From an uncultured archaeon (lineage in GTDB: Archaea; Micrarchaeota; Micrarchaeia; Micrarchaeales; CABMGC01), in contig CAVSOP010000006.1 in NCBI GenBank assembly GCA_963729635.1, positions 27,283-91,282 of the forward strand: a DNA stretch of 64,000 nt. The letters are read 5' to 3'. Numbering within the stretch: position 1 is the first letter of the stretch; every line of letters begins with the position of its first letter. This document shows, piece after piece, positions 1 through 55,548 of this stretch. The position numbers and the translations under genes were made by a program. The notes below the pieces were generated by a model. It saw only the letters and a program-made list of their open reading frames with translations, made no database searches and was not told the origin of the DNA.

Positions 1-16
1 CTGGTGTAGTGATGTC

Positions 17-1152: not shown

Positions 1153-1158
1153 GTTACT

Positions 1159-2185: not shown

Positions 2186-2195
2186 GGCTGATCCG

Positions 2196-3264: not shown

Positions 3265-3307
3265 ATACATTATATATCCCTAACTCACAACTATAAGTCG
3301 TGGTCCC

Positions 3308-4138: not shown

Positions 4139-4146
4139 GTGGGAAG

Positions 4147-4971: not shown

Positions 4972-5013
4972 GCGTCGGTAAAGCGATATAAGCTTATAGA
5001 GGATTGTTGGACC

Positions 5014-6520: not shown

Positions 6521-6531
6521 CCCCGGGCGCG

Positions 6532-7047: not shown

Positions 7048-7154
7048 AATACCCTCAGAAGTATTCTGAACGTCTGCTTCTTAAAATGACAGTACTCCTT
7101 CCGCCAAATGGCGCCGCACAAACAATATAAACTCAAAAGAACCTATGCATATCG

Positions 7155-13908: not shown

Positions 13909-13912
13909 TGCC

Positions 13913-13929
13913 CCAGCCAGATTCGAACT
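13913..13929. repeat. 17-nt direct repeat of the 3' end of tRNA-Gln (CCAGCCAGATTCGAACT; second copy 13946-13962)
   Basis: Perfect 17-nt copy located 33 nt from the copy inside the tRNA. It looks like a truncated T-arm/acceptor remnant. Confidence 0.8.
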
Positions 13930-13940
13930 CGAACATGAGA

Positions 13941-14013
13941 TAGCTCCAGCCAGATTCGAACTGGCGTCAACGGGTTCAGAGCCCGCTATCCTTGGCCGCT
14001 AGACTATGGAGCT
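13941..14013 (-). tRNA. tRNA-Gln (anticodon CUG)
   Basis: Reverse complement AGCTCCATAGTCTAGCGGCCAAGGATAGCGGGCTCTGAACCCGTTGACGCCAGTTCGAATCTGGCTGGAGCTA folds as a cloverleaf. It has a 7-bp acceptor stem, a GTTCGAATC T-loop, anticodon loop CUCUGAA and discriminator A. Confidence 0.9.
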
Positions 14014-14030
14014 GCAAATTCAGTTTGCCA

Positions 14031-14805
14031 TTGCACATTAATAATATTTTCTCACTAATCCTAAGCTATGCTGAAGCGGAGGGCCTCGGCCTGTCGAAGG
14101 AGCTGGAGGACATAATCGTCGCGGACCTGGTGCTCTCGTTCGCGTTCACCATGGTGCTGAGCGGAGGCATCTTCGGCGGCGCGCCGAGCGTCGCGTCGCT
14201 GCTGCCCCTATTCGCGATATCGCTCGTGGCCGTGACGCTCTCCTTCGTACTGCACGAGATGATGCACAAGTTCGTGGCGCAGCACTTCGGCGCCGTGGCC
14301 GCGTTCAGGAGGTCGGACAACGGGCTGATGATCACGCTCATTCACGAGCCTCTTCGGCTTCCTCGTGGGCATTCCCGGGGCAACGGTCATCTACGCCCAC
14401 AATTTCACCAAGAAGGAGGAGGGTTACGTCTCGCTCGCGGGGCCTCTCACCAACCTCGCGGTCTTCGCCGTCTTCCTGGCCCTGGGGCTCTTCGCAGCGA
14501 GGTCGATCGGCTTCGCGAACGGGCTGTTCAGCGTAGGCTCGAGCGGCTTCGTGGGCGACCTGATAGGCACGACGATGCTCATCAGCCTGATACTCGCGTT
14601 CTTCAACATGCTGCCCATCTACCCGCTCGACGGGAGCAAGGTGCTGAGATGGAGCAGGCCGGTCTACTTCGTCGTCCTGGCGGCGGTTCTGGCGCTGCTG
14701 TTCCTGTTCTTCTCCACAAGCGACATAGTGTACAGCCTGGCCTTCATGCTGGTCTTCGCCTTCGCGATGAGCTTCTTCTTCAGGGGAGGGGGGCTGCGTC
14801 TTTAG
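14031..14805 (+). CDS. Site-2 protease family (M50) membrane metalloprotease, one apparent frameshift
   Basis: HEMMHKFVAQHFG (HExxH) in ORF 13992..14813, and FNMLPIYPLDGSKVL in ORF 14365..14805, with the frame switch near 14340-14365. The start is uncertain (TTG at 14025/14031 just after the tRNA). Confidence 0.7.
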
Positions 14806-14839
14806 AAAAGTAGGGTATGAGCAAGCCGCGCGTCTCGGA

Positions 14840-15177
14840 TTATCTGGTCACGCACCCGTAAACATGGCCTTTCTCCGTCGGTCCGCCCTCATCGAGTTTG
14901 ATGCCCAGCGCCTCCGCCTGCCTCCTGGCGTCCTCGTTTGCCTGGTGCGTCCACCCTTGCAGGTAGAGCCTGGAAGGCCCCTGCCTTTCCGGCCCTTCTC
15001 CCATGGGAGCCATGCGTGAAGTTGCTTTGAAACGGGTGGCGTCCATCCCGGCGCGGTCGCGCCTGCCTTCCCTGTAATCCGTGAGTTCCCTGCCCGCGGA
15101 TCGGGCATCATGCTCCAGTGCTCGGATCTGCGCATCAGGCTCGCCAGGAGCTCGTTGGCGCGGATCTCCTTTTCCAT
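14840..15177 (-). CDS. Hypothetical small protein, apparent frameshift
   Basis: ORFs 14848..15177 and 14840..15046 overlap in two frames and may be one gene. No family recognised. Confidence 0.25.
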
Positions 15178-15270
15178 GGATTTATTTCCGCAGGCAGGTT
15201 AAAATAACTCGCGGCGCGGCTCTCCAAGACCTTTATTAATTTTTACGACATAAATCCTAGTGGTATACTG

Positions 15271-17434
<2,164 letters not shown>

Positions 17435-39925: not shown

Positions 39926-40105
39926 TTACGTGTTCGCGAGCGCCAGCGCCTGCCACTCGTTCGCGGTGCTTGTTATAGTGGACATTCCCGGGGTGCCGTA
40001 AGTTCCGGAGAAGTAGGGATAGGTCAGGCCGTAGGCGGTCCCGTTGAATCCGTCGCCCGAGTAGTCGTTTGCGTTGCCGTTGAGGGGCCACCAGTCGGAT
40101 AACAC
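39926..40105 (-). pseudogene. C-terminal remnant (about 58 codons) of a LamG pilin-like paralog
   Basis: Translates VLSDWWPLNGNANDYSGDGFNGTAYGLTYPYFSGTYGTPGMSTITSTANEWQALALANT, near-identical to the C-terminus of gene 41572..44203. It includes a 41-nt identical run GCCTGCCACTCGTTCGCGGTGCTTGTTATAGTGGACATTCC. It starts directly at the ATPase stop. Confidence 0.8.
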
Positions 40106-41455
40106 TTATTCCAATGCATCCGCATTGCCAAGCAGCCAGCTACGCAGGTCAACGTAATTAATTCTGAAGCCCTTTACCGTTTCCTTTCCCTTCTTGTCGT
40201 AGGTTATGATTGTGCCCTCCTTGAGACCGAGATCCTGCATGCACTCGATCAGCGCGTCGAGTTCCCTTCCCTCCGTCTCCTGACTGTCCATCTTGTACGC
40301 GGCCTGAATTGCGCGAAGCGTCTTGCCCGCCTTTACCAGAAAATCCACCTCCCTGCCGCTTGTTTTAGATTTCCAGTAGAAAATCTCGGTTGGTTTGCCT
40401 GAATGGCTTCTTCTAAGCAGTTCTATCGCGATGGCGTTCTCCATCAACCGTCCTTTTATCTCCATGAAACTGAATCCGAGTACTGTGGAAAACCCGTTGT
40501 CTATTGAGTATACCTTTCGCGGGCTGTTCTCCTGTTCCTTGACTGAGAACGAAAACCGTTTGACGAAGAAAAGCAGTAAGGAGCTGCCCAGGTATTCGGA
40601 GAAGCGCTGCACGGTCTTTACAGGCATCCCTTTTCCGCCGCCTGACCTTGTCGAGCGCGATATGCTGTTGTAAGTCACAGTTGATGATATGTTGGTGAGA
40701 TAGAATTTCGCAAGGAAGCGCAATTTTTCCTGGTCCCTTATCTTGTACCTGCCGGCGACGTCCTTTATCAGTATCGTATCGAAATAGCTGACCAGAAGGT
40801 CCTCCTTGTTCCTGGCCCGAACTACTGCGGGAAACCCCCCATATTGCAGGTAGTCCTCCAGCAGGGCGTCAACCTCGCCAGAGCTGGCCGCCAGGTCCAG
40901 CCTACTCCTTGCGTGCACGCCGTTGAATTCCAGGAATTCGGAGAAGCCCAAAGGGGAAACGTTGACGATTATGTGCCTGCCCGAGAGCAGCGTGGAGTAT
41001 TCGGAGCTTAGAAGGGCGGACGACGAGCCGGTCACCACGAATGATGCATCATCCCGCTCGCTGAGCCCCCTTACGAACCGTTCCCAGCCGGGCACCTCCT
41101 GGGCCTCGTCAAGCACTATGAGCGGCCTCCGTTTCGGACGCAGTTCCCTCTTGTACAGCTCGTACGCCGCCAACAGGAGGCCGTAGTTCTTCTCGACGAG
41201 CCTTTCGTCGTCGAGGTTTATTATAAGCACATCCTCTTTGCCGAGACCGTCCTCTATGAATCTTGCTGCCACCTGCTTGGCTATGAACGACTTGCCGCAC
41301 CTCCTTATTCCGACCTCCGCCACCACCTTGTTGCCGTCCTTGAGGAGGTCCGATATCCTATCGGTGTAGACATCCCTGCCCACTCCGACGTCAGGCGCCC
41401 TGGAGCCCCAGAAGTTCCAGTCGGACAGAATCCTCAGCAGCTTGCCTTCCTCCAT
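40106..41455 (-). CDS. AAA_14 / DUF4143-family ATPase (COG1373-like), copy 1
   Basis: Intact 449-aa ORF. Walker A GIRRCGKSFIAKQV, Walker B LIVLDEAQEVPGWERFV, VTGSSSALL, GRHIIVNVSPLGFSEFLEF, then a DUF4143-like C-terminal half. GC is lower than the surrounding pilin genes. Confidence 0.8.
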   Translation of the reverse strand: MEEGKLLRILSDWNFWGSRAPDVGVGRDVYTDRISDLLKDGNKVVAEVGIRRCGKSFIAKQVAARFIEDGLGKEDVLIINLDDERLVEKNYGLLLAAYELYKRELRPKRRPLIVLDEAQEVPGWERFVRGLSERDDASFVVTGSSSALLSSEYSTLLSGRHIIVNVSPLGFSEFLEFNGVHARSRLDLAASSGEVDALLEDYLQYGGFPAVVRARNKEDLLVSYFDTILIKDVAGRYKIRDQEKLRFLAKFYLTNISSTVTYNSISRSTRSGGGKGMPVKTVQRFSEYLGSSLLLFFVKRFSFSVKEQENSPRKVYSIDNGFSTVLGFSFMEIKGRLMENAIAIELLRRSHSGKPTEIFYWKSKTSGREVDFLVKAGKTLRAIQAAYKMDSQETEGRELDALIECMQDLGLKEGTIITYDKKGKETVKGFRINYVDLRSWLLGNADALE

Positions 41456-41467
41456 ATTTGTGACTTA

Positions 41468-41515
41468 TGTGACACAAAATATTAATATCTTGTGTTTCGT
41501 GTGACACAAAATATT
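41468..41515. promoter_or_regulatory. Two copies of TGTGACACAAAATATT (41468-41483, 41500-41515) upstream of ATPase copy 1
   Basis: Perfect 16-nt direct repeat with 32-nt periodicity in the 116-nt spacer. Each copy contains the near-palindrome TGTGACACA and an AT-rich TATA-like part. Confidence 0.5.
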
Positions 41516-41571
41516 GAAGCGGTCGCCTCGGACCGCCAGCTGACATGCACACGCCATGAGACGAAGCGCAT

Positions 41572-44203
41572 TCACGTGTTAGCCAGGCCGAGAGCCTGCC
41601 ACTCGTTCGCGGTGCTTGTTATAGTGGACATTCCGGGGGAGTTGTACGTTCCTGAGAAGTAGGGGTAGGTAACGCTCGTCGCAGTCCCGTTGTTGCCCTG
41701 GCCGCTGTAGTCGTTGGCATTGCCGTTGAGGGGCCACCAGCCTACCGGACCCGCGCCATTCAGAGGTAGGCCCGTAATGCCCCCTTGGTAAAGCAATTGC
41801 ACCTGATTCGCCGAAAGGGCGGTGTTGTAGACCTGGACGTCCGAGATTGAGCCTGCAGGGTAATAGTAGCCCAGGGAGCTGGCCAAGCCTATATCCGAGG
41901 CGCCAGACGTGGTGGCGAACGCGATTCCCCCTCCTGTTGTAGATTGGGACTGCCCGTCGACGTAAACCGTCGCCTGGGTGGCACCCGAAGCGTACGTGTA
42001 GCCTACGAAATGCCATACGTTGGGAGTTATGGCCAGCGTAGAAGAATAACCGACTCCTGGCGTGGAAACATACAAATTGCCGTTATAGATGAGCAGCCCG
42101 GTACCCGTCTGCCCGCTGACACCCCCGTACCAATAGATGGTATAAAGTCCGCTGGTTATGGCCGTCGGGGCATTCACCCACGCGAAGACGCTTCTCGGGC
42201 TGCTGCCGAGAGGCTGTCCCGTCGTGCCCGTGCTTATGTAGCTGCTCTGGCCGTTGAAGTTGCCGGTCTGCGCGTACCCGCTCTGCACCTCGAGGGGCAT
42301 GCTACTCAAGTAGATGTCGGGCAGGCCGCTGTTCGAGCACCTGCTGTTCGAGGTGCACGAGAGGATTCCCGGGACCGGCTGGGGCGGCGCCGGCGTTACG
42401 TATGAGAGCGCGCTGTCCCTGGCGTAGTTCGTGGGCAGCGCATAGATCACGTTATAGGTCACGCCGTTGTCCGCGTAGCCGCTGAGGTCGTTCGCGTTGC
42501 CGTTGAGGGACCACCAGCCCGAGAGGCTCGACCAGCCGCCCGCGAAGTTCAAGTTGAATACCGGCAGGCCGGAGACGCCCTCCTGGTAGAGCTGCTGGAT
42601 CTGGGTCGGCGAGAGGACCGAGTCATAGACCTGCGCGTTCGCTATCATGCCGTTGAAGTTGAAATATGGGCTGACGGAGGCTTCCCCGATAACCACAACA
42701 CCGGGCGCCAGGCTGCCGCTGATGGGGGCGTTGGCCACCAGCACGCCGTTCACGTACAGCCTGGCAGTGGAGCCGTCGTACGTGCCGACGTACTGCGTCC
42801 ACGCCCCGATGGCGGGGCACGAGCCGCCAGTCGCGAGGGCGCTATTACCGTGCGGGTAGTAGCCGGTGTAGACCCCGAAACCCGGGCCGGTCGAGGTGCA
42901 CGAGTCTAAGTAAGTCGCGCTCTGCGCCATCAGTATGCCCCTCGGGTCGCCGTTTCCGGGCCCGAGCTGGTCCGCCCAGACTGCCATCGTGACCTGGTTG
43001 CCCTGGGCGAGCGCGGTCGGGGAGATGCTCACGTAGCTGCTCTGGCCGTTGAAGACGCCTGCCTGCGCGTTGTAGTTCGAGAACGTGAATATGCCGTTGG
43101 GCGACTCGTTGAGCAAGTTGGCCGCCGGCCCTGTCCATGTAGGACGGAGCGAAGGGCGAGGCGAAGTAGTAGCCGTTCGATACCGCGTTCCTCAGGCCTT
43201 CCACGTTGAGCGTATCCATTCCGGGCCCGTAGAGCAGTACGCGCATCCCCGTCGGCAGGCTCGGCATTATGCCGGGCGCGGCGCCGCTGTAGACCAGATA
43301 TGGCATCGCAGGCATGGATGGCGGGAGATAAGTTATGAGGCCGGCGTAGCCGCTTATGCACCCGCTCAGGCTCACCGAGTTGTAGGTCGCTATTATGATG
43401 TTCCCGCTGTAGGGCGCGGAATTGAAGGGCGACCGGATTCCCGTGCAGTTCGCGCTGCTGGTGGAGCTGCTGGGAATGTTGTATATGGTGCCATACGCGA
43501 ATCCCACGTTGTTTCCGGAAGCCGCGTAGACCCCGCCTATCTGCGAGGTCAGGTTCCCAAGGCTCGCGAACTTGATCGTCTTCCATATGCCCTGCTGCGC
43601 GTAGAAGAGGTCGGGGGTGTTGTTCAGCGCTATTGACGCGTTGACGGGTATGCTGTACCTGTAGAGGATCCCCGATGCGTTCAGCGCGACGTTCTCCACG
43701 TACGAGACGCGGAGGTGATACGGATCGGTCTGGAAGAAGACCGGCGTCGTCTCGTTTATGATGACGTTCTGTCCGAGGCCGAGCTGGCCCGACACCAGGA
43801 CGTTGTAGCCGCTGAACGTAAGGCCGCCCATCGCCTTCTGGGTATATCCGGTCGCGTACGCGTCGTTGGGCAGGGTCCCGGTCATCATCAGTCCGGAAGC
43901 GTATGTGCTGAAGTTTGAGATGAGGTTGCCCCTGCTCGGCGCCGCGCTGTACTCGTAGTTCGCCAGGACAGTGAGCGCCCTCGAGGCGCTCTCCTTCGCG
44001 AAGAGGTTCGCGCTCTGCCTCAGGAGGGTGCCGTAGTTCATCGAGCTCAGCGAGACGGAGAGAGACTGCGACGCGGCGTTCGCGTTGATGTTGAGGAGGG
44101 AGAAGGCGAAGAGCGCCGAGACCATGAGCAGGAACATCACCAGCACAAGTATCGTCATCAGCTGGGCCTTGCTTGACCTTCCAAGGGGATTAGTCATTTC
44201 CAT
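41572..44203 (-). CDS. Pilin-like (class III signal peptide) giant surface protein with two LamG-type domains, one apparent frameshift near 43100
   Basis: N-terminus MEMTNPLGRSSKAQLMTILVLVMFLLMVSALFAF. The C-terminal half has FNGQSSY...W.HVA/YVG...LYVNG motifs and GWWPLNGNANDYSGQGNNG repeats, typical of concanavalin A-like LamG (Laminin_G_3) domains. Confidence 0.7.
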
Positions 44204-46369
44204 GTGTAGACACCTACTTTGATGACGTTATCCGCGCCAGTAGTATAGTTCAGCAACGGGACGAAGACGCTCGCCGAGCCTATCGAGTAAGCGTTGGCGA
44301 GGCTCAGCGCCGTGTAGTTCTGCGATACGAATGCGACTCCGCTGTTGTATCCCGTGTTGAATCCCGCGTAGTCGTTAGCGTCTCCCCCGAGAGGCCACCA
44401 GCCCGCCAGACCTGCGTTGCTCAGGGGAAGGCCGGATATGCCCCTCTGATAAAGGGTCTGGATCTGGCTTGGCGAGAGCGTGGTGCCGTACATCTGGAAA
44501 TCCGCCAGGCTCCCGCTGAAATAGGAACTTGCCCTTGCGCTGTCGCCGATGTAGAAATTATAAGTGCTCCAGGACAGGGGTCCTGTTAGCCCGGCTTGCT
44601 TGGCCACCTGGACCCCGTTCACGTACACCGAGATTGCGTTGGCGCTCTGAGTCCCGTTCCACTGGGCGACGACGAAGGTCCATGTGTTGATGGGGAAAGT
44701 GCTCAGCGGAATCTGCGACGACGTCGATGCCCTGTTCGCCGAATTGTATATGTCAAACTCGATGTTCGGCGGGCTCCCGGCCGGATACGCAGTTAATGCT
44801 ACGCCTCCCTGGGTGCCGGGGCTCCCTAGGCCTTCGCCTCCGAAGACCGCGGGGTAGGTCGAGGCGGACCAGCTCGAGGGATTGAGCCAGAGGGAGATTG
44901 CGAAGGCTCCGACAGGTTCGGCAGAGGCCGGAAGCTGGACGTAGCTGCTCGCCCCGTTGAAGCTCCCGACAAGGGTGTTGTGCGCCGAGGCGTTGCCGGC
45001 GACGACGGTATAGTTGGCCGCGGGGAACGCCGCGCTCGAGAGCGCCTCCGCGCAGCCCGGATCGGAGTTCAGGTAGAGGGTCGCGATGGCGGAGAGGGCC
45101 GACGAGTGCATGGGCGCGTTGCAGGCGCCGTACGCGATCACGCTGCTCCCTACGACGACGTAGAGCCTCCCGTACGCCAGTGCCATGTACGGCAGGGCTC
45201 CGGCGGAGCCCGGGATCGGCGTGAACCATGCGACCGTGCCGTTATTGACGTACTGTCCTGCCAGGCCGTTCGACCAGAGGGTGTAGACCATCTTACCCGA
45301 AATCGCAGGGGTTGCACCCGCGAGCGCGGTCCCGAAGGACGAGGGGACCGTCGCAGTCCAGAGCTGCACTCCAGAGGGGGAGAACGCCGCTTCGCCGGTC
45401 GCGACTTGGTATATCACGTAATTCTTGTAATCCGCCACGCCGGTGGCTGAGGCTGTTGTTATGGGGAATCCGGCCGCGGGCAGGCTGTTGACGACCAATG
45501 CGTTGGCCATCGAGCTCCCGCCGAAGTATATCTCAGATCCCTCGCCTGCAAGACCGGTCGTGATGGAAGGTGGCGTAACGCTCCAGAGCTGGCTGGCCGC
45601 ATTTCCCGTCTGCATCAGGAGAAGCACGTTGCCAGAGGCTCTCGCGGCCAGGTTTCCATCGGCCACGATTATGTTGAAGGGGGAAGTTCCTGCGCCGGAG
45701 ACAGTCCATGCGGACGTTCCGTTGCCCGCGAAGAACGAGTACACGCCGCCGTTCGTCGCGCCGAAGATCACCCTGTTGTCGTACGCCAGGATCGGCGAGG
45801 TTACCGCCGAAGGCAGGCTAACGCTCCAGACCGGAGCGCCCGTTCTGGCATTGAGCGCCACGAGGTTGGCAGAATTGGCAAAGACCAGGGTCCCCGCATA
45901 CAGGGCAGGTGTGGACGCCACGCTCGATGCCGTGGAGCTGCTCCAGACGACGTTGTTCGTCGTCGCGTTCACGGCGTAGACGAGTGCTGCCCGCGGCGAA
46001 GTAGATGTTGCCGTAATCCGCCACGACGCTAGTGGTTATGGTGTTGCCCGCGGCGAACACGGAAGAGAATATGGGCTCAATCGGCCCGAAATCGTTGCTG
46101 TTGTTCCTGAAGATTCCGCCCTCCGAATTGCTGCCAGGTCGCGTTGGCGCCGGCGAACTGGTTCGACATCGCCTTGGCGAGCGCGCTGCTGTTCTGCATG
46201 ACGTCGACGGAGGTCGAGAGGAGGTTCGAGAGCGCCGACTGCGCGTTCGAGTATTGGATCGGTGTAGGGGCGTCTGGTTCGAGTAGTTGAAATAGAGCAG
46301 TATCGATATGCTGGCGACGGCTATGGCCAGCGCGAAGATCGCATCCAGAGTGAATACCACGCCTTTCAT
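44194..46369 (-). CDS. Pilin-like protein with PQQ-like beta-propeller repeats and a C-terminal LamG domain, apparent frameshifts near 45975 and 46250
   Basis: N-terminus MKGVVFTLDAIFALAIAVASISILLY. Repeated strands of the type LVALNARTGAPVWSV / VYSFFAGNGTSAWTV / GVQLWTATVP. C-terminal FNGASSYVQLP...GLAGWWPLGGDANDYAG. Confidence 0.65.
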
Positions 46370-46914
46370 CAACTGACCCCGAATGTCTTGTTCGTCCAGA
46401 CGATTATCTGCACCCTGACGGGCGCGCCGTTAAGCGTCGCGGACTGCATCGCGACCTGCGACGCGGTGGCCTTGTTGCTGTAGGGCGGCACGCCCAGGGA
46501 CATCGTCATGTTATTTCCGTACATGACAATATAATACTCATACCCCACCCCGAGCAGGGGCTTGGTGTCCTGGTAATAGACCGAGTTGGAAGTAGTCGGA
46601 CATGGCCATGAAGGTCATGACCTTGCCCGGCGAGAGCGCGGTGCCCGCTGCCGGTGCCGAGGCCGATGCTTGATATTGGACCAGGTCATCGTGTTAGACA
46701 CGTTCAGCACCGAGTTCCAGTTTGACGGGGTGCCAGGGCCGAGTATCCTGTTCTGAAGGCTCTGCAGCTGCGCCTGGAGGTTGGCCGACCCCAGCCCGTA
46801 TGACAGGGAGTACTGGTTGCTTATGCTCGTCCACACGAAGGTGAGGAGCACGAGCGCCGTCCCGAAAATCACCACTGCGAAGATAACGTCGAATGACCAG
46901 AATTGCGCTCTCAT
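46369..46914 (-). CDS. Small pilin-like protein, apparent frameshifts
   Basis: MRAQFWSFDVIFAVVIFGTALVLLTFVW (class III signal peptide-like: basic residue, Q, hydrophobic helix). Its stop overlaps the next ATG and its ATG overlaps the stop of ATPase copy 2 (ATGA). Confidence 0.6.
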
Positions 46915-48185
46915 GGCGATGCACCAGTCATAATAGATTCCTTACCCAGAAGAACTTTAAGTATATTCATTATCTTTATCGTCTTTTCGTCCCTCTGCAC
47001 CTCTTTATCTACTTGCGAGGAAATCACATATCCTTCACGCTGCTTGAATTTATTTAGGAAGAAAAACACGTTTTCCAGTTCTATGCCTCCGTACTTCACC
47101 TCTATCGGAAAGCCACCTTCCGTGACGATATCCACTTCGTGCTTGTACGCGTCCCTCCAGAAGAATTTGGCGTCGAGTTGGCTCACTGCAAGCCATTCGA
47201 ACACCTTGGACCTGTAAAGGTCGTCCGTCTTGTAGGTAAGTTCCGGAGACAGCACAGTGGGATAATACTTTTTGAGCTTCTTCTCCTGCCTTCTGGACTT
47301 TTTCGAGTAGTTATAGAGCCTCCTTATCAGAAAGGCGTCCTCTAGGTAGGAGAGATAATCCGAAGCTGTCTGTCTTGAGATGCCCAGGTCACTTGCAAGC
47401 CTGATGTACTCTATGATCTGCCCCGGGTCCTGCATGAGCATGTTCAACATGGCCTTCAGCGCTCCGATGTTTTCGACCTCGAACGCCTCCGGAATGTCCT
47501 TGTACAGGATCCTCTCAGCTATCCCTTCCACTATGTACTTCCTTATGGCGACCGGATCATCGATGCCTATCAGCTCCGGGAACCCCTGGATTCGTATGAA
47601 CTCGTTGAGTAGCCTCCTGAGCTCGCCCTCGTGGAGCCTGATATTGTCGAAGTGCCTCCCTTTGAAATCTAAGAACTCCGCGAAAGACAGGGGATTGACC
47701 TTAAACTCGAAGATCCTCCCCGCGAGACTCTCTTTCGATTTCTTCCTTATGGAAAGAGACTCGGAACCGGAGAGCAGTATCTTGGTGGTGGCGGAGTGGA
47801 TGTCGTAGACCGTCTTCACCTGGTTCTCCCAGTCGGCGAGCTTCTGCACCTCGTCTAGCACGAGAAGGTGCCCGCCATCCTTCAGGCTCCTCTCGCAGAA
47901 GTTCTCATACTCCTTTATGACGTCCCTCAGTTCGACATCCCTGGCCTCGTCGAATGAGAAGAATAGGATGTCCTTTGGATCCATGCCCGAGGCTATGCTG
48001 TCTTCGATGATCTTGAGGAGCAACGTGGTCTTTCCCACCCGCCGCAGGCCGGTGAAGGACACTATCTGTTTCATTCCGAGATACTTCTTGACCTGCCTGT
48101 AGACCTCCCGCTCCTTGAAGGCCACCTTGAAGTCTCCGCTCCACCATGCGTTCCTTTCAATCATCAGGTCCAGAATCTTTGGCAT
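46911..48185 (-). CDS. AAA_14 / DUF4143-family ATPase (COG1373-like), copy 2
   Basis: Intact 424-aa ORF. Walker A GLRRVGKTTLLLKI, Walker B LLVLDEVQKLADWENQV, LSGSESLSI, GRIFEFKVNPLSFAEFLDF. Clearly AT-richer than its neighbours. Confidence 0.8.
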   Translation of the reverse strand: MPKILDLMIERNAWWSGDFKVAFKEREVYRQVKKYLGMKQIVSFTGLRRVGKTTLLLKIIEDSIASGMDPKDILFFSFDEARDVELRDVIKEYENFCERSLKDGGHLLVLDEVQKLADWENQVKTVYDIHSATTKILLSGSESLSIRKKSKESLAGRIFEFKVNPLSFAEFLDFKGRHFDNIRLHEGELRRLLNEFIRIQGFPELIGIDDPVAIRKYIVEGIAERILYKDIPEAFEVENIGALKAMLNMLMQDPGQIIEYIRLASDLGISRQTASDYLSYLEDAFLIRRLYNYSKKSRRQEKKLKKYYPTVLSPELTYKTDDLYRSKVFEWLAVSQLDAKFFWRDAYKHEVDIVTEGGFPIEVKYGGIELENVFFFLNKFKQREGYVISSQVDKEVQRDEKTIKIMNILKVLLGKESIMTGASP

Positions 48186-48384
48186 GTGTAACCATCATTA
48201 AATCGATTTAATGTTAATCATAACTAACATCAAATATAAAAACCTATTCCCATGATCTTTCGCCACTGGTGTCATCCAATTCGTCCCTAATTTATGATTA
48301 ATCTATGATACTTATATGTCTCATAGAATCGATTCTATGATACTTAGCATTAACATCAAATATGCGATCTGGTGCTCGGGAAAG

Positions 48385-48404
48385 CCAGAACTGCGCCCTC
48401 ATGG
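48385..48404. repeat. 20-nt duplicate of the small-pilin gene start (CCAGAACTGCGCCCTCATGG; other copy 46897-46916, 2 mismatches)
   Basis: Both copies read ATGAGRGCGCARTTCTGG (MRAQFW) on the minus strand, and each overlaps the stop of the preceding gene as ATGA. Only the 46897 copy continues into a pilin ORF. Confidence 0.8.
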
Positions 48405-51400
48405 AACCCATCCCAGAGGTACGCTCGCCGAGGCGCTGGGAGGCATCTGGCTCTGGTAGAGCTGCTGGACCTGGCTTGGACTCAAGGCGGTGCTGTAGAC
48501 CTGCGCGTCCGCCAGCAGGCCGTTGAAGTTGTAGAAACTGTATAGGCCCCAATCTCCCATCGAAGTAGGCCCGTATGCCCCTAGATTGCCGCTCTGGACG
48601 GCGTTGGCCACCAGCACGCCGTTCACGTACAGCCGGGCCATGGAGCCGTCGTAAGTTCCTACGTACTGCTTCCAGATGCCGTTGGCGGGGCAGGTTCCTC
48701 CGGTTGCAAAGCCCCAGCCGCTGGTGTATGTCGCAAACGTTGGCGCGCCGGAATTGCACGCGTCCAGATAAGTCGCGTACTGCGACATCATGACGCTCCT
48801 GGCCGAGTTTCCTGGGCCGAGCTGGTCCGCCCAGACTGCCATCGTGACCTGGTTGCCCTGGGCGAGCGCGGTCGGGGAGATGCTCACGTAGCTGCTCTGG
48901 CCATTAAATCCGGCACCGTACGAGTTGAGCGAAGAAATGAGGTATGGGCCTATCGCCCGCTGGGATATGTAATTCGCGGCTATCGCCGTCCCGTTGTTGC
49001 CGTTGCCACTGTAGTCTTGGGCGTTGCCGTCGAGCGGCCACCAGCCCGCGAGGCCCGAATTGCCTAAGGGCAGACCGGAGATGCCTTCCTGGTAAAGGGA
49101 TTGTACCTGGTTCGCCGAAAGGGCAGTGCCATAAGCCTGGACATCTGCGAGGGAACCTGACCAGAAATTGGAAACCGGGGCCGCGGCATCACCGCCTATT
49201 ACTGAAGGATTCTGCACATTGAGAGCTATGTTCTGCGCCGTCACCGTCTGGGAATACGCTAGATTATTCAGATAAAGGGTAAGGGTGTTGCCTGAATAGG
49301 CGTATCCCGCGAAATACCAGGTGTTGGGCAAGACCGAAAGGGGACTTGCATACGCTGACGCTCCATTCCAAAAACCGAGGGTTCCGGAACTGACGAAAAG
49401 ATTTGCCATCCTGCCAACTGCACCGTCACTTCCGTAGCTATACGCGTCAAGATTTGAGCTCGGGGATTTGTCATAGATCCATGCGAAAGCGGAACTTGGG
49501 GCGTTGCCAAGGGGCAGCCCGTTGGTTCCCGTAACCACATAACCGTTCTGGCCGTTGAAGTTTCCGGTAAGCATGCTCGTGGCATTGGCGTTCACGTTTG
49601 GAATCGATGACGTGCCGGCGAAGTTTAGGTTCCCGTAGATGACTCCGCTGTTGCCATTGCCGGAGTAGTCGTTGGCGTCGCCGTCGAGGGGCCACCAGCC
49701 GGAGAGCCCTGAGCTCGTGAGGGGCGGGCCGGAGATGCCTTCTCGATACAGAGTCTGAATCTGGTTCGCCGAAAGGGCGGAACTGTAGACCTGCGCGTCC
49801 GATATTTCACCGTTCAGGAACCAGTCGCCTGCGTAATAATGACTCATGAATAGGGACGTGACCGAGCCGTCGCAGAATCCGAGTGCTCCGGACGCCGAAC
49901 CGGTTGCCACGGCCACTCCGTTAATGTAAAGGGCATAGGTGGTACCGCTCCAGGTTTCTACGGCGTGCAGCCAAGTGTTTCCAGAAAAGGATGCCGATAT
50001 CGGCCCGACCCACCCTCCATTGACGCATACATATGCGGATATTGCGGAATTTCCATTGTCTTGCAGGGCGAACTGCCCATTTCTGATGAATACCTGATCA
50101 AATGATGGTGAGAAATCATTAAACCAGATGGACGCGGTTAAGCCCGAAGTGAGCGGAGGCGAGAGGGAGTTGCCCGTCGCTACATAACTGCTCGCCCCGT
50201 CGAATTTCGCGACGTAGTTCGGCTGACTCCAGCTCGCGTAGCTCATCGCTCCGCTGTTGCCGTTGCCGCTAAGGTCCGCGGCGGCGCCGCCCTGACCGAG
50301 GTTGAGCGGCCACCATCCGACGAGATTGCCCTGTAGCGCTAGCGTGGCGTTGCCGTTAAAGGCCACTGCCTTCACAAGCGCCTGGCCGTTGTTCCCCTGC
50401 TGGCTTAGGAACGCCGTCGCAATGCCGTTGGAGTTAGTGTAGCTCGCGGTGGCCTGGCCTTTCGTGAAATTCCCGGAGGTGGTCGCGAAGCCTACGAGCG
50501 CGTTCGGCAAGGTCTGGCCGAACTGGTTGGTCGCTTTCGCGAAGAGTTGCGCGACAGTGGTATATGTCAGCGGGCCTACGACGTTTCCGTTGTCGTTATT
50601 GCCGGAGTAGTCCTGGGCGTTGCCGTTGAGGGGCCACCAGCCGACGAGACCCGCGCCGCTCAACGGGGTGCCGGAGATGCCCCCCTGGTAGAGCTGCTGG
50701 ACCTGACCCTGTGAAAGGGCGGTGCCGTACACTTGGACGTTTGCGAGGGAACCATTTAGATATCCTGCGTAATTGCCCAAGGCGAGAGGGCTTACCGTGA
50801 CCATAGTGCCGCCACTAGTAGTGACGCTTCCTTGAACAGGGACACCATTCAAGTATCCGACCATTGTTGCTCCATTATAAATCAATACCGCCTGATACCA
50901 GGTGTTAGCGAGAGGTAAGGTCGCAGTAAAGGCTCCGCCCGACATTGTAGAAGTGTACAGCTCGTACCTTAGCTGACCGGTGCCAGGAAGCCAAAGGTCT
51001 ATGTAAGGCGCTCCATACTGAGCCATAATCCCTTGCGCACTGGTCAGGGAATTCGTTTTGAACCAGACGACATAAGTCACTTGGCCGTTGGAGTATTGCA
51101 GAGAGGATGAGTCAGGTATGTTCACATAGCTGCTCTGGCCGTTGAAGTTGCCGGCGTGCGTCACCTGCGCCGAGAGGCTCACGTTGGTTGCCTGGCCTCC
51201 GGCCGTGGGGCACTGGTAGTCGATGCAGATCGTGCCGAAGGAGTTCTGCACCTCCAGGGAGCCGTTCGCGGTGGGCATGGCGTAGTACGCCGAGTTGGCC
51301 GTCAAGTACGACGGGTTGGAGACCACGCCCTTGACGGAGCTGTACGCCACCGCCTGCACGACCTGCCCGCCTATGAGGGAGTTGACTATCACAGCCCCGT

Positions 51401-51665
51401 TCCGGGTTATGCTCAGGTTGTAGTTCACCGAGCCTATCGCCGTGGCGAGGGGCACGCTCGCCGCGTATCCGGGCCCGGCCTGCAGGGCCGCGTCGAGCTG
51501 CGCGGCTATGCCCTGCGCGATCGCCTGGCCCACGGAGTAGAGCTGCCTGTTCTGCTGCTGCACCCTCTGCGTCGAGACCTCGGCGAAGAGGACCGCGAAG
51601 ATGACTAGCACGATGGAGAAGACAAGCATGTACTCGAGGGCGATCTGCGACTTCTTTAGGGGCAT
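48399..51665 (-). CDS. Giant pilin-like (class III signal peptide) adhesin-like protein with about five LamG-type domains and an Ig-like segment
   Basis: Intact 1088-aa ORF. N-terminus MPLKKSQIALEYMLVFSIVLVIFAVLF. There are four repeats of G(L/W)xGWWPL(N/D)GNAxDYSGNGN(N/S)G, each preceding a FNG/FDG-x-SSYV...LYxNG LamG pattern. Confidence 0.8.
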   Translation of the reverse strand: MPLKKSQIALEYMLVFSIVLVIFAVLFAEVSTQRVQQQNRQLYSVGQAIAQGIAAQLDAALQAGPGYAASVPLATAIGSVNYNLSITRNGAVIVNSLIGGQVVQAVAYSSVKGVVSNPSYLTANSAYYAMPTANGSLEVQNSFGTICIDYQCPTAGGQATNVSLSAQVTHAGNFNGQSSYVNIPDSSSLQYSNGQVTYVVWFKTNSLTSAQGIMAQYGAPYIDLWLPGTGQLRYELYTSTMSGGAFTATLPLANTWYQAVLIYNGATMVGYLNGVPVQGSVTTSGGTMVTVSPLALGNYAGYLNGSLANVQVYGTALSQGQVQQLYQGGISGTPLSGAGLVGWWPLNGNAQDYSGNNDNGNVVGPLTYTTVAQLFAKATNQFGQTLPNALVGFATTSGNFTKGQATASYTNSNGIATAFLSQQGNNGQALVKAVAFNGNATLALQGNLVGWWPLNLGQGGAAADLSGNGNSGAMSYASWSQPNYVAKFDGASSYVATGNSLSPPLTSGLTASIWFNDFSPSFDQVFIRNGQFALQDNGNSAISAYVCVNGGWVGPISASFSGNTWLHAVETWSGTTYALYINGVAVATGSASGALGFCDGSVTSLFMSHYYAGDWFLNGEISDAQVYSSALSANQIQTLYREGISGPPLTSSGLSGWWPLDGDANDYSGNGNSGVIYGNLNFAGTSSIPNVNANATSMLTGNFNGQNGYVVTGTNGLPLGNAPSSAFAWIYDKSPSSNLDAYSYGSDGAVGRMANLFVSSGTLGFWNGASAYASPLSVLPNTWYFAGYAYSGNTLTLYLNNLAYSQTVTAQNIALNVQNPSVIGGDAAAPVSNFWSGSLADVQAYGTALSANQVQSLYQEGISGLPLGNSGLAGWWPLDGNAQDYSGNGNNGTAIAANYISQRAIGPYLISSLNSYGAGFNGQSSYVSISPTALAQGNQVTMAVWADQLGPGNSARSVMMSQYATYLDACNSGAPTFATYTSGWGFATGGTCPANGIWKQYVGTYDGSMARLYVNGVLVANAVQSGNLGAYGPTSMGDWGLYSFYNFNGLLADAQVYSTALSPSQVQQLYQSQMPPSASASVPLGWVP

Positions 51666-54010: not shown

Positions 54011-55548
54011 ATGAGGTATGACGGGAAGCTTGGGATACTGGTCTTCCTTATCGCCACAGTGGTGCTGCTGTCCACTTCCCTCTTCATAACTCCTCTCGCT
54101 GTCAGCGACGCCGACCCGTCGACATACGTCATCGTCCCTATGCTTATGCTTCCGCTCTTCGTGCTCTTCTCGCTGAAGGCAGGCGCGGATCCCGACGTCG
54201 GAAGGCGCGACGTGGCCATAGGTTCCGCGATGTTCGCCGCGTTCATCCTGCTCACTCTCTTTCTGAGGTTCTACTTCTCGTTCCTGTTCCTGAGCTTCAG
54301 GATGGACCTCCTGGTCCTGCCCCTCGCGCTCGCCGCGCTCGCGGTGCTCCTCTTCGGGACCAGGAACCTCGGCAAGTTCAGGGGAGTCATACTCTATGCG
54401 CTCTTCGCGTCCCCGCCCGTGCTCTTCCTCCTGCTCGAATCGTACAACGCGTTCACTTCCATAAACTCTGTCATAGTCTACGGCCTCCTCAGGCCTTTTG
54501 TCGCGGGCGTGAAGTACGTGGCGCCAATCACCATAAGCGCCAACGGATACAACATAGGCATAGGGCAGGCGTGCGTCAGCATAGGCATCTTCATCGCGCT
54601 GGCGCTCTTCCTCGTGCCCGTCGCGTACCTCTATGACGGGAAGGACTCTAAGAAAGCGGCGTGGGTGGCAAGCGGGGTCGCGCTCCTGTTCGCGTTCAAC
54701 ATATTCAGGATGCTATTCGTGTCCTATGAATGGCTGGCCTACGGTCCCAGCGAGCATAATCGCGCTGGTGCACGCCACCGCCGGGGTGTTCCTCTTCTAT
54801 GCCGCGATAATCGTCATGGTGCTCGCGGCGGGCGCTTACGGACTGTCCTTGGGAGCCAAGGCCGAAGCCGCGGAGAAAACGCAAGCAGAAGGGCGGCGCG
54901 GGCCCGTGGCCGACAGCGGTTGTGCTCGCGCTCGCGTTCGCTCTGGTCTACGCGTGCACAACGCTGGGCTACTGCCGGCGCGCTCGTGCGTCTCACCGCT
55001 GGCCTCTGGCGAACGGAGTCGCCTTCAACTTCAGCAACGCGGGGATCGCGCATTCGGTGTCGGGGATCGTGGGCGGCAGGGGCTTCAACTATTCGGTGGT
55101 GCCGGGCCAGGACGGAACCTACGTCTTCTTCGACCTGGCCAACAGGACGATAAACGCTTCGGAACCCGCCGTGCTCCTGGTGGCGAGGCCAGGCGCTGAA
55201 CATCACAGGTAGCATAGAGAGCAACAGCACGGTGGAGGGCAGGTTCGGGTTCCTGAACGCCAACGGCGCCAGCGAGGAGGTCGACGACGTAATCTCGAAC
55301 GGCACGGAGTTCTTCCTTTACCATACCGTCATGCCCCTGTCCCTGGGCGACATGTCGTACGTCGATCGCTGACGTCTACGTGATACTTCCGGGAAGCGCG
55401 GTGCGCGGCAGCGCCTGCGCCGCGGGCTACGACCCGATCTACGCCGTCGCGCTCAACGCCTTCAACGCCGAGAGCTACAACGGGACGGCACGCGATGGCG
55501 CGCTGAAGGCGCTCTGCATCTCCGACAGGCATAGTGTGGTCCCAATGA
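54011..55548 (+). CDS. Exosortase/archaeosortase-family membrane protein with long C-terminal extracytoplasmic extension, several apparent frameshifts
   Basis: Multi-TM N-half carrying candidate catalytic triad contexts IGQACVSIGIF (Cys), AFNIFRMLF (Arg) and IIALVHATAGVF (His). A C-terminal sequon-rich segment is spread over 3-4 frames. The proposed stop TGA at 55546-55548 overlaps the next ATG. Confidence 0.5.

What the first reader, a model, noticed from the sequence alone, without database searches (positions are those of the whole stretch)
46897..48404. AAA_14/DUF4143 ATPase cassette inserted six codons into a pilin gene, with a 20-nt duplication that regenerates the start codon and translational coupling
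The giant LamG gene ends ...CCATGA, overlapping ATGAGGGCGCAGTTCTGG (MRAQFW) at 48385-48404. After six codons the reading runs into AT-rich sequence with no pilin helix. About 1.47 kb downstream, the same 20 nt recur with 2 mismatches (46897-46916). There they overlap the stop of the ATPase gene as ATGA and continue into the real pilin ORF (MRAQFWSFDVIFAVVIF). So an AT-richer block (ATPase gene plus a 200-nt regulatory region) sits precisely inside the operon, bounded by a direct duplication of the pilin start. This is the footprint of site-specific or microhomology-mediated cassette insertion. It is not a transposon with TIRs, and no recombinase is present. COG1373-type ATPases are abundant, patchily distributed and functionally uncharacterised in archaea. 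Their DUF4143 part has been proposed to be nuclease-like.
Basis: seen in the sequence. Interest (0 to 1): 0.65.

Follow-up and report, generated by a model that had tools for sequence, protein, structure and literature searches.

The report
Defence-candidate ATPase cassette in pilus operon
A single gene for an ATPase-nuclease of a candidate antiviral family, with its own promoter, sits exactly at the junction of two overlapping pilus-operon genes of a tiny DPANN archaeon; about 28 bases of that junction are duplicated on either side, most relatives lack the insert, and some carry a different ATPase gene in the same slot.

Summary
A 1,468-nt block (199-nt promoter region plus a 424-aa AAA_14/DUF4143 ATPase gene) lies between two copies of CCATGAGxGCGCAxTTCTGG (18/20 identical). 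The repeat occurs nowhere else in the window.

Relatives settle the direction of the event. About 55 of roughly 61 related Micrarchaeota loci have the LamG gene directly next to the pilin-like gene, 18 of them with the same CCATGA overlap. Only six lineage groups carry an ATPase there.

The event is old rather than recent:
- Third-codon-position GC matches the host.
- The nearest homologue (67% identity) occupies the same slot in other genomes.
- The exact protein was found only at this locus.

The slot turns over. Two ATPase subtypes, 52% identical, are distributed incongruently with the flanking genes. The window keeps a relic of the other subtype's promoter. One relative has replaced the gene with an ATPase_2/DUF234 ATPase.

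A second ATPase in the same operon is flanked by a 167-nt target duplication. Overall, 5 of 12 such genes examined have significant flanking direct repeats.

PADLOC assigns the proteins to the candidate defence families PDC-S01 and PDC-S27. The closest known analogue is "insertion with long target duplication" of bacterial restriction-modification genes. The insertion mechanism remains inferred.

The parts
48399..51665 (-). Upstream host gene. It encodes a 1088-aa protein with a pilin-like N-terminus and four Laminin_G_3 domains. Its stop codon is the TGA of the left ATGA.
   Evidence: ORF. Pfam Laminin_G_3 at 8.9e-64. Orthologues directly abut the pilin-like gene in most relatives.
48385..48404 (-). 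Left copy of the duplicated junction, CCATGAGGGCGCAGTTCTGG. It holds the LamG stop codon plus a relic of the first six pilin codons.
   Evidence: (family D4). Its ATGAGGGCGCAGTTCTGG part is identical to the pilin start in L009.
48298..48402 (-). Relic ORF of 34 codons (MRAQFWLSRAPDRIFDVNAKYHRIDSMRHISIID) that starts at the duplicated ATG. It has no hydrophobic helix and is probably non-functional.
   Evidence: Translation.
46917..48384 (-). The inserted block, 1,468 nt, lying between the two strict 20-nt copies. It has no terminal inverted repeats, and the ATPase ORF has no stop codon of its own inside the block.
   Evidence: It is absent from empty-site relatives. A contig in run X1 skips 1,488 nt here.
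48263..48365 (-). M1: a relic of an earlier cassette of the L009/L015 subtype, consisting of its promoter/operator and decayed first codons. It includes the perfect palindrome CATAGAATCGATTCTATG (48322..48339).
   Evidence: Alignment with L004 and L009. In L009, M1 and M2 are tandem copies, 77% identical over 65 nt. The same type of palindrome lies upstream of homologues in unrelated loci.
48186..48244 (-). M2: the present promoter/operator of the ATPase gene. It has a T/A-rich box and the palindromes ATTTGATGTTA..TAACATTAAAT and TTAAATCGATTTAA (48198..48211).
   Evidence: Conserved in the window, L004, L010 and, more loosely, L009. Inverted repeats I1 and I2. Its role as promoter or operator is inferred.
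46911..48185 (-). The ATPase gene, 424 aa, with three parts: an AAA_14 ATPase, a helical/HTH middle region, and a DUF4143 PD-(D/E)xK-type nuclease domain. It belongs to PADLOC family PDC-S01. Its last four codons and its stop codon lie in the right copy of the duplication.
   Evidence: Pfam. PADLOC PDC-S01 at 9.6e-60 over the full length. Invariant across 46 homologues: Walker A (G46..K52, T53), Walker B (D111, E112), and E350-V-D352 with E362-x-K364. AlphaFold2 model with mean pLDDT 88 and a C-terminal alpha-beta-beta-beta-alpha-beta unit.
46897..46925 (-). Right copy of the duplicated junction. The strict 20 nt are 46897..46916. The 9 nt upstream align, with one indel, to the last LamG codons of empty sites. 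It carries an SD-like GGTG, the ATPase stop and the pilin ATG, arranged as an ATGA overlap.
   Evidence: The strict part is identical to the empty sites L002 and L013.
46369..46914 (-). Downstream host gene for a pilin-like protein, 181 aa after correction. In the window it is broken by three indels relative to Illumina contigs: +AG after 46590, and 1-nt deletions at 46649 and 46673.
   Evidence: There are 66 homologues, with Q4, F5, W6, S7, D9, F12 and A13 invariant. No Pfam hit, so 'pilin' rests on the N-terminus and on neighbouring T2SSF/T2SSE genes.
39928..41740 (-). A second, independent cassette in the same operon. It contains a 449-aa AAA_14/DUF4143 ATPase (40106..41455, 24% identical to the first) with its own tandem 26-nt operator-like repeats (41458..41515). 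It is flanked by 167-nt direct repeats of the 3' end of the last LamG gene (41574..41740 and 39928..40094, 81-83% identical).
   Evidence: Relatives L002, L006 and L010 have one copy of the repeat and no ATPase.

Best explanation
What it is. This is a single-gene accessory cassette of about 1.47 kb in a Micrarchaeota (DPANN) archaeon. It has its own promoter/operator and an ORF for an AAA+ ATPase, an HTH region and a PD-(D/E)xK nuclease domain, belonging to the candidate defence family PDC-S01.

How it got there. The cassette entered the overlap between a LamG-adhesin gene and the next pilin-like gene by an insertion that duplicated about 28 nt of the target. The duplicated stretch holds the last four LamG codons with an SD-like GGTG, the ATGA stop/start overlap, and six pilin codons. 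Because the whole junction is present on both sides:
- LamG keeps its stop codon.
- The ATPase ORF reads into the second copy and borrows the stop codon there.
- The pilin gene keeps its ribosome-binding site and start codon, now overlapping the ATPase stop codon.

When. The event is old. The gene has host-like codon composition and orthologues in the same slot.

What happened since. The slot behaves as a presence/absence and allele-swapping locus.
- Recombination between the flanking repeats can delete the cassette precisely.
- A released circle, or a DNA fragment with its flanks, can enter an empty site of another strain through the very conserved pilin-start sequence. This would be a Campbell-type or homologous exchange.
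- Resident ATPase genes are overwritten by other subtypes, leaving 5' relics.

Shown versus inferred.
- Shown: the duplication, the empty sites, the incongruent phylogenies, the relics and the second slot.
- Inferred: the recombination route, autoregulation through the palindromes, translational coupling, and a defence function for the protein.
For: Duplication and statistics.

Empty sites:
- L002, L006/L014, L013, L016-L025, L027, L042, L043, L045, L048 and L087.
- A soil-metagenome contig that skips 1,488 nt.

Same slot filled in other lineages:
- L010/L011 carry a 67% orthologue with their own flanking repeat, 31/35 identical.
- L026 carries an orthologue 67-69% identical to the window's ATPase (71% to L010's).
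- L009 and L015 carry a subtype 52% identical to the window's.
- L003/L004 carry an ATPase_2/DUF234 ATPase (PDC-S27) preceded by relics of M1, M2 and 12 codons of the window-type gene.

Incongruence between the ATPase and its flanks (percent identity):
- WIN-L010: ATPase 67, pilin 48, PQQ-LamG 36.
- WIN-L009: ATPase 52, pilin 80, PQQ-LamG 51.
- L009-L015: ATPase 79, pilin 59, PQQ-LamG 42.
Filled and empty loci also interleave on the pilin tree.

Evidence that the event is old and the gene is not multiplying:
- GC3 is 0.71 against 0.73 in the host gene, and L010's copy tracks its lower-GC host.
- The exact protein was found only at this locus, and its nearest relative is 67% identical.

Generality:
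- The second window cassette has a 167-nt duplication.
- L004's third cassette, in the opposite orientation, lies between two copies of the same LamG 3' end.
- L081, in an unrelated locus, has a 55-nt flanking repeat.
- 5 of 12 distinct genes have significant flanking repeats.

Promoter palindromes travel with the gene into unrelated loci.

Family and motifs. PMC12988326 describes PDC-S01 and PDC-S27 as untested ATPase plus PD-(D/E)xK candidates that are abundant in Archaea.
Against: - No circular or excised form, and no empty site in the same strain, was seen. Only assembled contigs were available, and the one empty-site contig in the same sample comes from a strain about 88% identical.
- The first insertion cannot be explained by Campbell integration, because a circle would not yet carry the target sequence.
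- Homology of 20-35 nt is short for homologous recombination.
- Seven of the 12 ATPase genes showed no significant flanking repeat. In two of these, the L004 DUF234 slot and L015, only a decayed copy is visible.
- One insertion with a known empty site (L004, 1306/3013) has no visible duplication.
- The two mismatches between the copies could be either decay or donor/recipient polymorphism.
- A defence function has not been demonstrated for this family.
Confidence: 0.6

Rival explanations
1. The ATPase is an ancestral, functional member of the pilus operon, for example a regulator of pilin expression. Most lineages have lost it, and the repeat is a by-product of those rearrangements.
For: - Orthologues sit in the same slot, with the same ATGA overlap, in L010/L011, L026, L009 and L015.
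- GC3 is host-like.
- The protein has an HTH-like region (Pfam HTH_11, weak).
- Three different ATPases all end exactly at the pilin ATG.
Against: - About 55 of 61 related loci, including deep pilin clades, have LamG directly next to the pilin gene, 18 of them with the exact CCATGA overlap.
- A deletion could restore that overlap only if the duplicated junction already existed, and that duplication implies a prior insertion.
- The ATPase and flank phylogenies are incongruent.
- Close homologues sit in unrelated loci such as the exosome/proteasome superoperon.
- The slot can hold a different family, PDC-S27.
Confidence: 0.12
2. The ATPase-nuclease mobilises itself. Its PD-(D/E)xK domain makes staggered breaks in the target, and the gene is then joined in and the gaps filled, giving target duplications of variable length. 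This would make PDC-S01 and PDC-S27 genes single-gene selfish mobile elements, as proposed for restriction-modification genes.
For: - Target duplications of 20-35, 40, 55 and 167 nt flank five independent cassettes, and the inserts contain no other gene.
- The nuclease and ATPase motifs are invariant.
- The family is scattered across unrelated loci and phyla at about 52% identity.
- It also occurs on plasmids (253 records, distant homologues).
- The same pattern in RM systems has been attributed to their DNA breakage (PMC2853133).
Against: - No recent copies exist. The exact protein was found at only one locus, and the nearest relative, 67% identical, is in the same slot.
- There is no multi-copy family and there are no defined element ends.
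- Repeats are absent or undetectable at 7 of 12 genes.
- Nothing links this nuclease to joining activity.
Confidence: 0.12
3. The cassette is integrated and excised by a site-specific recombinase encoded elsewhere in the genome or on a helper element. The 20-30-nt repeat would be the att core.
For: - Direct repeats of att-like length bound the block.
- The same site is used in several lineages.
- Absence in relatives is precise.
Against: - No integrase lies in the block or within 10 kb on either side.
- Repeat lengths vary from 20 to 167 nt between cassettes, and the two slots have different sequences. This does not fit a single att core.
- The rest of the genome was not available for inspection.
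Confidence: 0.1
4. The repeat is a chance similarity or an assembly chimera.
For: The window assembly does contain many 1-nt indel errors.
Against: - Only 0.01 chance matches are expected.
- Three independent assemblies share both junctions.
- The same architecture, with lineage-specific repeats, is present in L010/L011.
Confidence: 0.01

Closest known systems
Insertion with long target duplication of restriction-modification gene complexes (Nobusato et al. 2000; Furuta, Abe and Kobayashi 2010, PMC2853133)
   Same: - A small block encoding a nuclease, with no transposase or integrase, is flanked by direct repeats of unique target sequence.
- The repeat lengths are variable and unusually long.
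- Related genomes have an empty site with a single copy of the repeat.
- Different systems substitute for one another at the same locus.
- The inserted ORF can fuse with the duplicated target.
   Different: - The cargo here is a single ATPase-nuclease gene (PDC-S01 or PDC-S27), not a restriction/methylase pair.
- The host is a DPANN archaeon. No archaeal case passed the screen in that study.
- The first slot's duplication is at or below their 30-bp cut-off (20 nt strict, about 28 nt with a gap).
- The insertion lies inside an overlapping stop/start junction and preserves it.
PADLOC candidate defence families PDC-S01 and PDC-S27 (described for Archaea in PMC12988326)
   Same: - The window's two ATPases and L009's ATPase hit PDC-S01 models over their full length (E 1e-59 to 3e-106).
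- The L004 replacement hits PDC-S27.
- All have the ATPase plus PD-(D/E)xK architecture.
- These families are enriched in Archaea, and PDC families generally in DPANN.
   Different: The published work concerns the families' distribution. The mode of insertion, the flanking duplications, the promoter/operator that travels with the gene and the slot turnover seen here are, as far as I could find in the library, not described. The defence activity itself is untested.
Campbell-type integration of elements whose att site overlaps a gene end (tRNA or protein-gene 3' ends)
   Same: Direct repeats bound the insert. The interrupted gene end is regenerated by the duplicated segment. Precise excision restores the original junction.
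   Different: There is no integrase in the insert, the cargo is a single gene, repeat length is not fixed, and the duplicated segment spans the stop codon of one gene and the start codon of the next.
Free-standing homing endonuclease genes and 'morons' of phage genomes
   Same: A nuclease-type gene with its own promoter is wedged between two intact, conserved genes, and its presence is patchy among close relatives.
   Different: Homing leaves no target duplication. The setting here is a cellular chromosome, and no recognition site or homing activity is known.
Integron gene cassettes
   Same: Single-gene units are exchanged at a fixed position in an operon-like array.
   Different: There is no attC or attI site and no IntI. 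The cassette carries its own promoter, and the flanking repeat is host coding sequence.

Membership tests
AAA_14/DUF4143 ATPases (COG1373; PADLOC PDC-S01) | Both Pfam domains score above their gathering thresholds, and the PDC-S01 profile matches over the full length. | tested here: met
   AAA_14 scores 109.8 bits (cut-off 27) and DUF4143 scores 70.1 bits (cut-off 28.1). PDLC04787 matches at 9.6e-60 over residues 23-415 of 424.
AAA_14/DUF4143 ATPases (COG1373; PADLOC PDC-S01) | Intact Walker A and B motifs and PD-(D/E)xK catalytic residues. | tested here: met
   G46-R-R-V-G-K52-T53, D111-E112, E350-V-D352 and E362-x-K364 are invariant across 46 homologues. The AlphaFold2 model has an alpha-beta-beta-beta-alpha-beta unit at residues 322-389.
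AAA_14/DUF4143 ATPases (COG1373; PADLOC PDC-S01) | Protection against viruses, which is the reason the family is listed as a defence candidate. | not testable with these tools
DNA transposon / insertion sequence | Terminal inverted repeats at the ends of the block. | tested here: not met
   The best alignment between the first 120 nt and the reverse complement of the last 120 nt scores 16, with p = 0.31 against shuffles. One search lists no inverted repeat joining the block's ends.
DNA transposon / insertion sequence | A transposase gene, multiple copies, and a target-site duplication of fixed short length. | tested here: not met
   The only ORF is the ATPase. The window holds only two AAA_14 genes, 24% identical to each other. 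The exact protein was found at one locus only. Duplications measure 20-35, 40, 55 and 167 nt.
Integrative element with site-specific recombinase | An integrase gene inside or next to the element. | tested here: not met
   No recombinase Pfam family appears among the genes within 10 kb on either side in the ENA contig. The rest of the genome was not examined.
Integrative element with site-specific recombinase | Direct att-like repeats, and an empty site with one copy. | tested here: met
Insertion with long target duplication (criteria of PMC2853133) | An insert shorter than 20 kb with no other mobility gene, and an empty site in a related genome where a single copy aligns with both repeats. | tested here: met
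   First slot. Second slot: L002 positions 13095-13264 align with both window copies.
Insertion with long target duplication (criteria of PMC2853133) | A duplication longer than 30 bp. | tested here: inconclusive
   In the first slot the duplication is 20 nt strict, or about 28 nt with one indel, in the window, and 35 nt in L010. In the second slot it is 167 nt, which meets the criterion.
Insertion with long target duplication (criteria of PMC2853133) | The insert contains restriction and modification genes. | tested here: not met
   The insert holds a single ATPase-nuclease gene and no methyltransferase. The resemblance is therefore one of mechanism, not of family membership.
Archaeal type IV pilin-like protein (the downstream gene) | A short basic leader, a cleavage-type motif, a hydrophobic helix, and a location in a locus with pilus assembly genes. 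| tested here: inconclusive
   The N-terminus M[KR]AQFWSFDVIFA followed by a hydrophobic stretch is nearly invariant in 47 homologues. T2SSF (two copies) and T2SSE genes are adjacent. There is no Pfam hit and no structural test was run.

The most novel reading that the evidence does not exclude
PDC-S01 and PDC-S27 genes (AAA+ ATPase, HTH and PD-(D/E)xK nuclease, with a private promoter/operator) may be autonomous single-gene mobile elements of archaea and bacteria. On this reading they insert by making staggered breaks with their own nuclease, which leaves long target duplications of variable length and lets them settle even inside overlapping gene junctions without damaging either neighbour.
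Probability: 0.12. Interest if true: 0.85.

Novelty: new variant of a known kind. Interest (0 to 1): 0.6.

Why it matters
PDC-S01 is reported to be among the commonest candidate defence genes in prokaryotes and is especially abundant in Archaea (PMC12988326). Neither its function nor how it spreads is known.

This locus offers a clean natural experiment. Filled, empty, replaced and relic states of the same slot are all available, together with a second slot in the same operon.

What the locus shows:
- These genes move as minimal promoter-plus-ORF units.
- They are often bounded by duplicated target sequence.
- This pattern has so far been documented for bacterial restriction-modification genes, not for archaea or for this family.

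It also shows how an insertion into an overlapping stop/start junction can leave both neighbouring genes intact. As a result, expression of a surface-structure gene becomes tied to a putative defence gene.

If the nuclease itself drives insertion, this would be a new, extremely simple class of mobile element.

Tried and rejected
- Composition as evidence of foreign origin: rejected. GC3 is host-like in the window, and in L010 it tracks that host's lower GC.
- Transposon reading: rejected. There are no terminal inverted repeats, no transposase and no extra copies.
- Structured RNA in the intergenic block: nothing in Rfam. The only match was a chance lncRNA hit at E = 0.71.
- Bacterial sigma-70 promoter and terminator scan: uninformative for an archaeon.
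- RNA-seq: no RNA runs hold the gene, so read-through and coupling could not be tested.
- Genome-contig scan with the ATPase: returned one unrelated Pacearchaeota locus.
- Viral-contig scan with the ATPase alignment: one distant locus.
- PDB sequence search: no relative.
- Foldseek against the PDB: only generic AAA+ matches (RFC, Cdc6/Orc1, Apaf-1, Avs4) at TM 0.3-0.4.
- NCBIfam: no hit.
- Search for an excised form in the same strain: contigs showed only an empty site in a strain about 88% identical.
- Extending the left repeat further into the pilin codons in the window: no convincing similarity beyond the 20 nt, although L010 shows 35 nt.
- Pilin loci with no LamG or ATPase upstream (L028, L029, L046, L055, L063, L064): these belong to a more distant operon type and were set aside.
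Full report
**Observation**

All coordinates are for the minus strand. The 1088-aa LamG-domain gene (48399..51665) ends in ...GGGTTCCATGA. The sequence CCATGAGGGCGCAGTTCTGG occupies 48404..48385. The same 20 nt, with two substitutions (CCATGAGAGCGCAATTCTGG), occupy 46916..46897. There the TGA closes a 424-aa ORF (46911..48185), and the ATG opens the pilin-like ORF that begins MRAQFWSFDVIFAVVIF.

With up to three mismatches allowed, the 20-mer has only these two matches in 64 kb, against 0.01 expected. The frame that opens at the left copy reads MRAQFWLSRAPDRIFDVNAKYHRIDSMRHISIID and then stops.

Between the copies lie 1,468 nt: a 199-nt region of 33% GC, then the ORF. The ORF carries Pfam AAA_14 (1.3e-31) and DUF4143 (2.3e-19).

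The arrangement is not an assembly artefact:
- A Logan contig from another run spans both junctions and is identical across the insert and both junctions (one mismatch, in the pilin gene).
- A 75-kb ENA contig has the same gene order.
- Contigs from four soil and peat metagenomes cover the junctions.

**Organism and locus**

Homologues of the pilin-like protein and of the ATPase are named Candidatus Micrarchaeaceae or Micrarchaeota by their sources. The window therefore comes from a DPANN archaeon found in soil, peat and lake metagenomes.

The operon encodes several proteins with pilin-like N-termini fused to LamG or PQQ-propeller domains. It lies next to T2SSF and T2SSE assembly genes.

**Direction of the event**

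I collected related loci in three ways: through pilin homologues, through the nearest ATPase homologue, and through one metagenome scan (66 loci).

- In about 55 of roughly 61 informative loci the LamG gene directly adjoins the pilin-like gene. Eighteen of these have the same CCATGA overlap.
- The empty-site sequence in L002 and L013 (GGTGGATGCCATGAGAGCGCAATTCTGGTC...) is identical to the window's right copy over the 20 nt.
- One contig in soil run X1 joins 46917 directly to 48406, skipping 1,488 nt. It belongs to a strain about 88% identical.

The empty junction is therefore the widespread state. The window's state is an insertion that duplicated the junction.

With one indel, the right copy also aligns with the last LamG codons of empty sites (TGGTGCATCGCCATGA against GGGTGGAT-GCCATGA). 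About 28 nt were therefore duplicated. That stretch contains:
- the last four LamG codons, with an SD-like GGTG;
- the stop/start overlap;
- six pilin codons.

The ATPase ORF has no stop codon of its own within the insert. It reads four codons into the right copy and uses the duplicated TGA.

**Age**

The block's lower GC is not a sign of foreign DNA. GC3 of the ATPase is 0.71, against 0.73 for LamG. In the lower-GC relative L010 the orthologue's GC3 (0.54) follows that host.

The exact protein was found only at this locus. Its nearest relative among 5.8 billion proteins is 67% identical. That relative lies in the same slot in two NCBI Micrarchaeaceae MAGs, again with an ATGA overlap and with its own flanking repeat, 31/35 identical.

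The insertion is therefore old and is not multiplying.

**Turnover of the slot**

Six lineage groups carry an ATPase in the slot.

| Lineage | Occupant |
|---|---|
| Window, L010/L011, L026 | One subtype, 67-71% identical to each other |
| L009, L015 | A second subtype, 79% identical to each other and about 52% to the first |
| L003/L004 | An ATPase_2/AAA_14/DUF234 protein |

Filled and empty loci interleave on a pilin tree. Identity rankings disagree between the ATPase and its flanks:

| Pair | ATPase % identity | Pilin % identity | PQQ-LamG % identity |
|---|---|---|---|
| WIN-L010 | 67 | 48 | 36 |
| WIN-L009 | 52 | 80 | 51 |
| L009-L015 | 79 | 59 | 42 |

The window's intergenic region has two modules.
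- M1 (48365..48263) matches the promoter and first codons of the L009 subtype. It is a relic.
- M2 (48244..48186) is the present promoter region.

L004 keeps M1, M2 and twelve codons of the window-type gene, including an in-frame stop. A new promoter and the DUF234-type gene follow, and that gene again ends at the pilin ATG.

The window's left repeat copy (ATGAGGGCGCAGTTCTGG) is identical to L009's pilin start and lies next to the L009-type relic. This fits an origin of that side from an L009-like donor, but it could also be decay.

**Generality**

The same operon holds a second AAA_14/DUF4143 gene (40106..41455, 24% identical to the first). It is flanked by 167-nt direct repeats of the 3' end of the last LamG gene (41574..41740 and 39928..40094). 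Relatives have one copy of that sequence and no ATPase.

In L004 a different ATPase, in the opposite orientation, lies between two copies of the same LamG end.

A 57%-identical homologue in an unrelated locus (L081) is flanked by a 55-nt repeat.

In a uniform test, 5 of 12 distinct genes had flanking repeats that beat all 200 shuffles. One insertion with a known empty site (L004, 1306/3013) has none.

Close homologues occur in quite different places, including inside the exosome/proteasome gene cluster. They carry a similar TATA-plus-palindrome module (CATAGAWT..AWTCTATG) just upstream of the start codon. The mobile unit is therefore promoter/operator plus ORF.

**The protein**

PADLOC assigns both window ATPases and L009's ATPase to PDC-S01 over their full length, and L004's replacement to PDC-S27. 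A 2026 survey describes both families as untested candidate defence genes with an ATPase fused to a PD-(D/E)xK domain. It reports them as abundant in Archaea, and DPANN genomes as enriched in multiple PDC families (PMC12988326). DUF4143 and DUF234 were placed in the PD-(D/E)xK superfamily in 2012 (PMC3424549).

In 46 homologues the Walker A and B motifs, and E350-V-D352 with E362-x-K364, are invariant. An AlphaFold2 model (mean pLDDT 88) shows an AAA+ core, a helical region and a C-terminal alpha-beta-beta-beta-alpha-beta unit. The nearest solved structures are only generic AAA+ proteins.

**Mechanism**

Shown:
- An insertion with duplication of the target.
- Precise absence of the insert in relatives.
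- Replacement of the resident gene, with 5' relics left behind.
- Two slots in one operon.

Inferred: after a first illegitimate insertion, the repeat-flanked cassette is lost by recombination between its repeats. It is regained or exchanged by recombination in the very conserved pilin start and the neighbouring sequence, either as a circle with one repeat copy or as a fragment with its flanks. Selection keeps only insertions that leave both neighbouring genes and the pilin's ribosome-binding site intact.

Also inferred: autoregulation through the palindromes, translational coupling of the pilin gene to the ATPase, and a defence role for the protein.

Rivals are an ancestral operon member lost many times, self-mobilisation by the nuclease, a recombinase acting in trans, and artefact. 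The fields above weigh each of them.

**Comparison and novelty**

The closest described phenomenon is insertion with long target duplication of bacterial restriction-modification genes, which also undergo allelic substitution (PMC2853133). Three things differ here:
- the cargo, a single ATPase-nuclease gene;
- the domain, Archaea, for which no case passed the screen in that study;
- the placement inside an overlapping stop/start junction.

I rate it a new variant of a known kind, of moderate to high interest.

Noticed in passing
window 45981, 46118, 46259, 46265, 46590, 46649, 46673 (and apparently 43000-43120, 54700-55150): The window assembly carries many 1-2-nt indels relative to contigs from three independent Illumina runs. 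These break the pilin-like gene, the next pilin/PQQ-LamG gene and other genes into overlapping ORFs. The ENA contig of the same strain has intact genes of 181, 723 and 876 aa. The cause is probably long-read assembly error rather than pseudogenes.
   Followed up: partly
window 39928-41740: A second AAA_14/DUF4143 (PDC-S01) gene lies at the end of the operon. It is flanked by a 167-nt duplication of the LamG 3' end, with weaker similarity continuing about 25 nt past the stop codon. Two tandem 26-nt repeats (TTGTG..TGTGACACAAAATATT, 41458-41515) sit just upstream of its start codon.
   Followed up: yes
L004 (ENA ERZ25039512 contig_52838) 1306-3013, 6310-8004, 13582-15465: This relative carries three ATPase cassettes in the same operon. 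One lies between the 157-aa gene and LamG and has no visible duplication. A PDC-S27 gene has replaced the window-type gene. An inverted PDC-S01 gene lies between two copies of the LamG end and has tandem 26-nt repeats at its promoter (15105-15163). The LamG genes there also look rearranged or split.
   Followed up: partly
L009 (Logan ERR12035941) 645-4401: Upstream of the ATPase-pilin pair, the LamG gene is replaced by an RHH/PIN toxin-antitoxin pair and a SWIM plus SNF2-helicase (DUF3670) pair. This looks like a defence-island-type segment.
   Followed up: no
L079 (ENA ERZ25039479 contig_11020) 4001-5263: A 57%-identical PDC-S01 gene sits between an ankyrin-repeat gene (itself just downstream of Rpp14) and the proteasome-alpha/SBDS/exosome gene cluster, which is normally a very conserved archaeal gene neighbourhood. 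No flanking repeat was detected.
   Followed up: partly
window 51665, 52182, 46372, 44203 (gene starts on the minus strand): All the large LamG and PQQ proteins of the operon begin with short basic leaders followed by Q-x-x-x-E/D-type motifs and a hydrophobic helix, for example KKSQIALEYMLVF and KGVVFTLDAIFALAIA. They therefore look like giant pilin-like subunits carrying adhesin domains.
   Followed up: no
L085 (ENA ERZ25039509 contig_187238) 1-6004: In this relative the LamG gene upstream of the pilin is only 193 aa. It is preceded by about 5 kb of small ORFs with no Pfam hits, which may be another replacement in the same region.
   Followed up: no
window 48298-48402 and L004 6303-6404: The relic ORF that opens at the duplicated ATG stays open for 33-34 codons in both the window and L004, and the two ORFs share a similar C-terminal part (IFDVN.KYHRID). 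This may simply reflect conservation of the M1 DNA.
   Followed up: no
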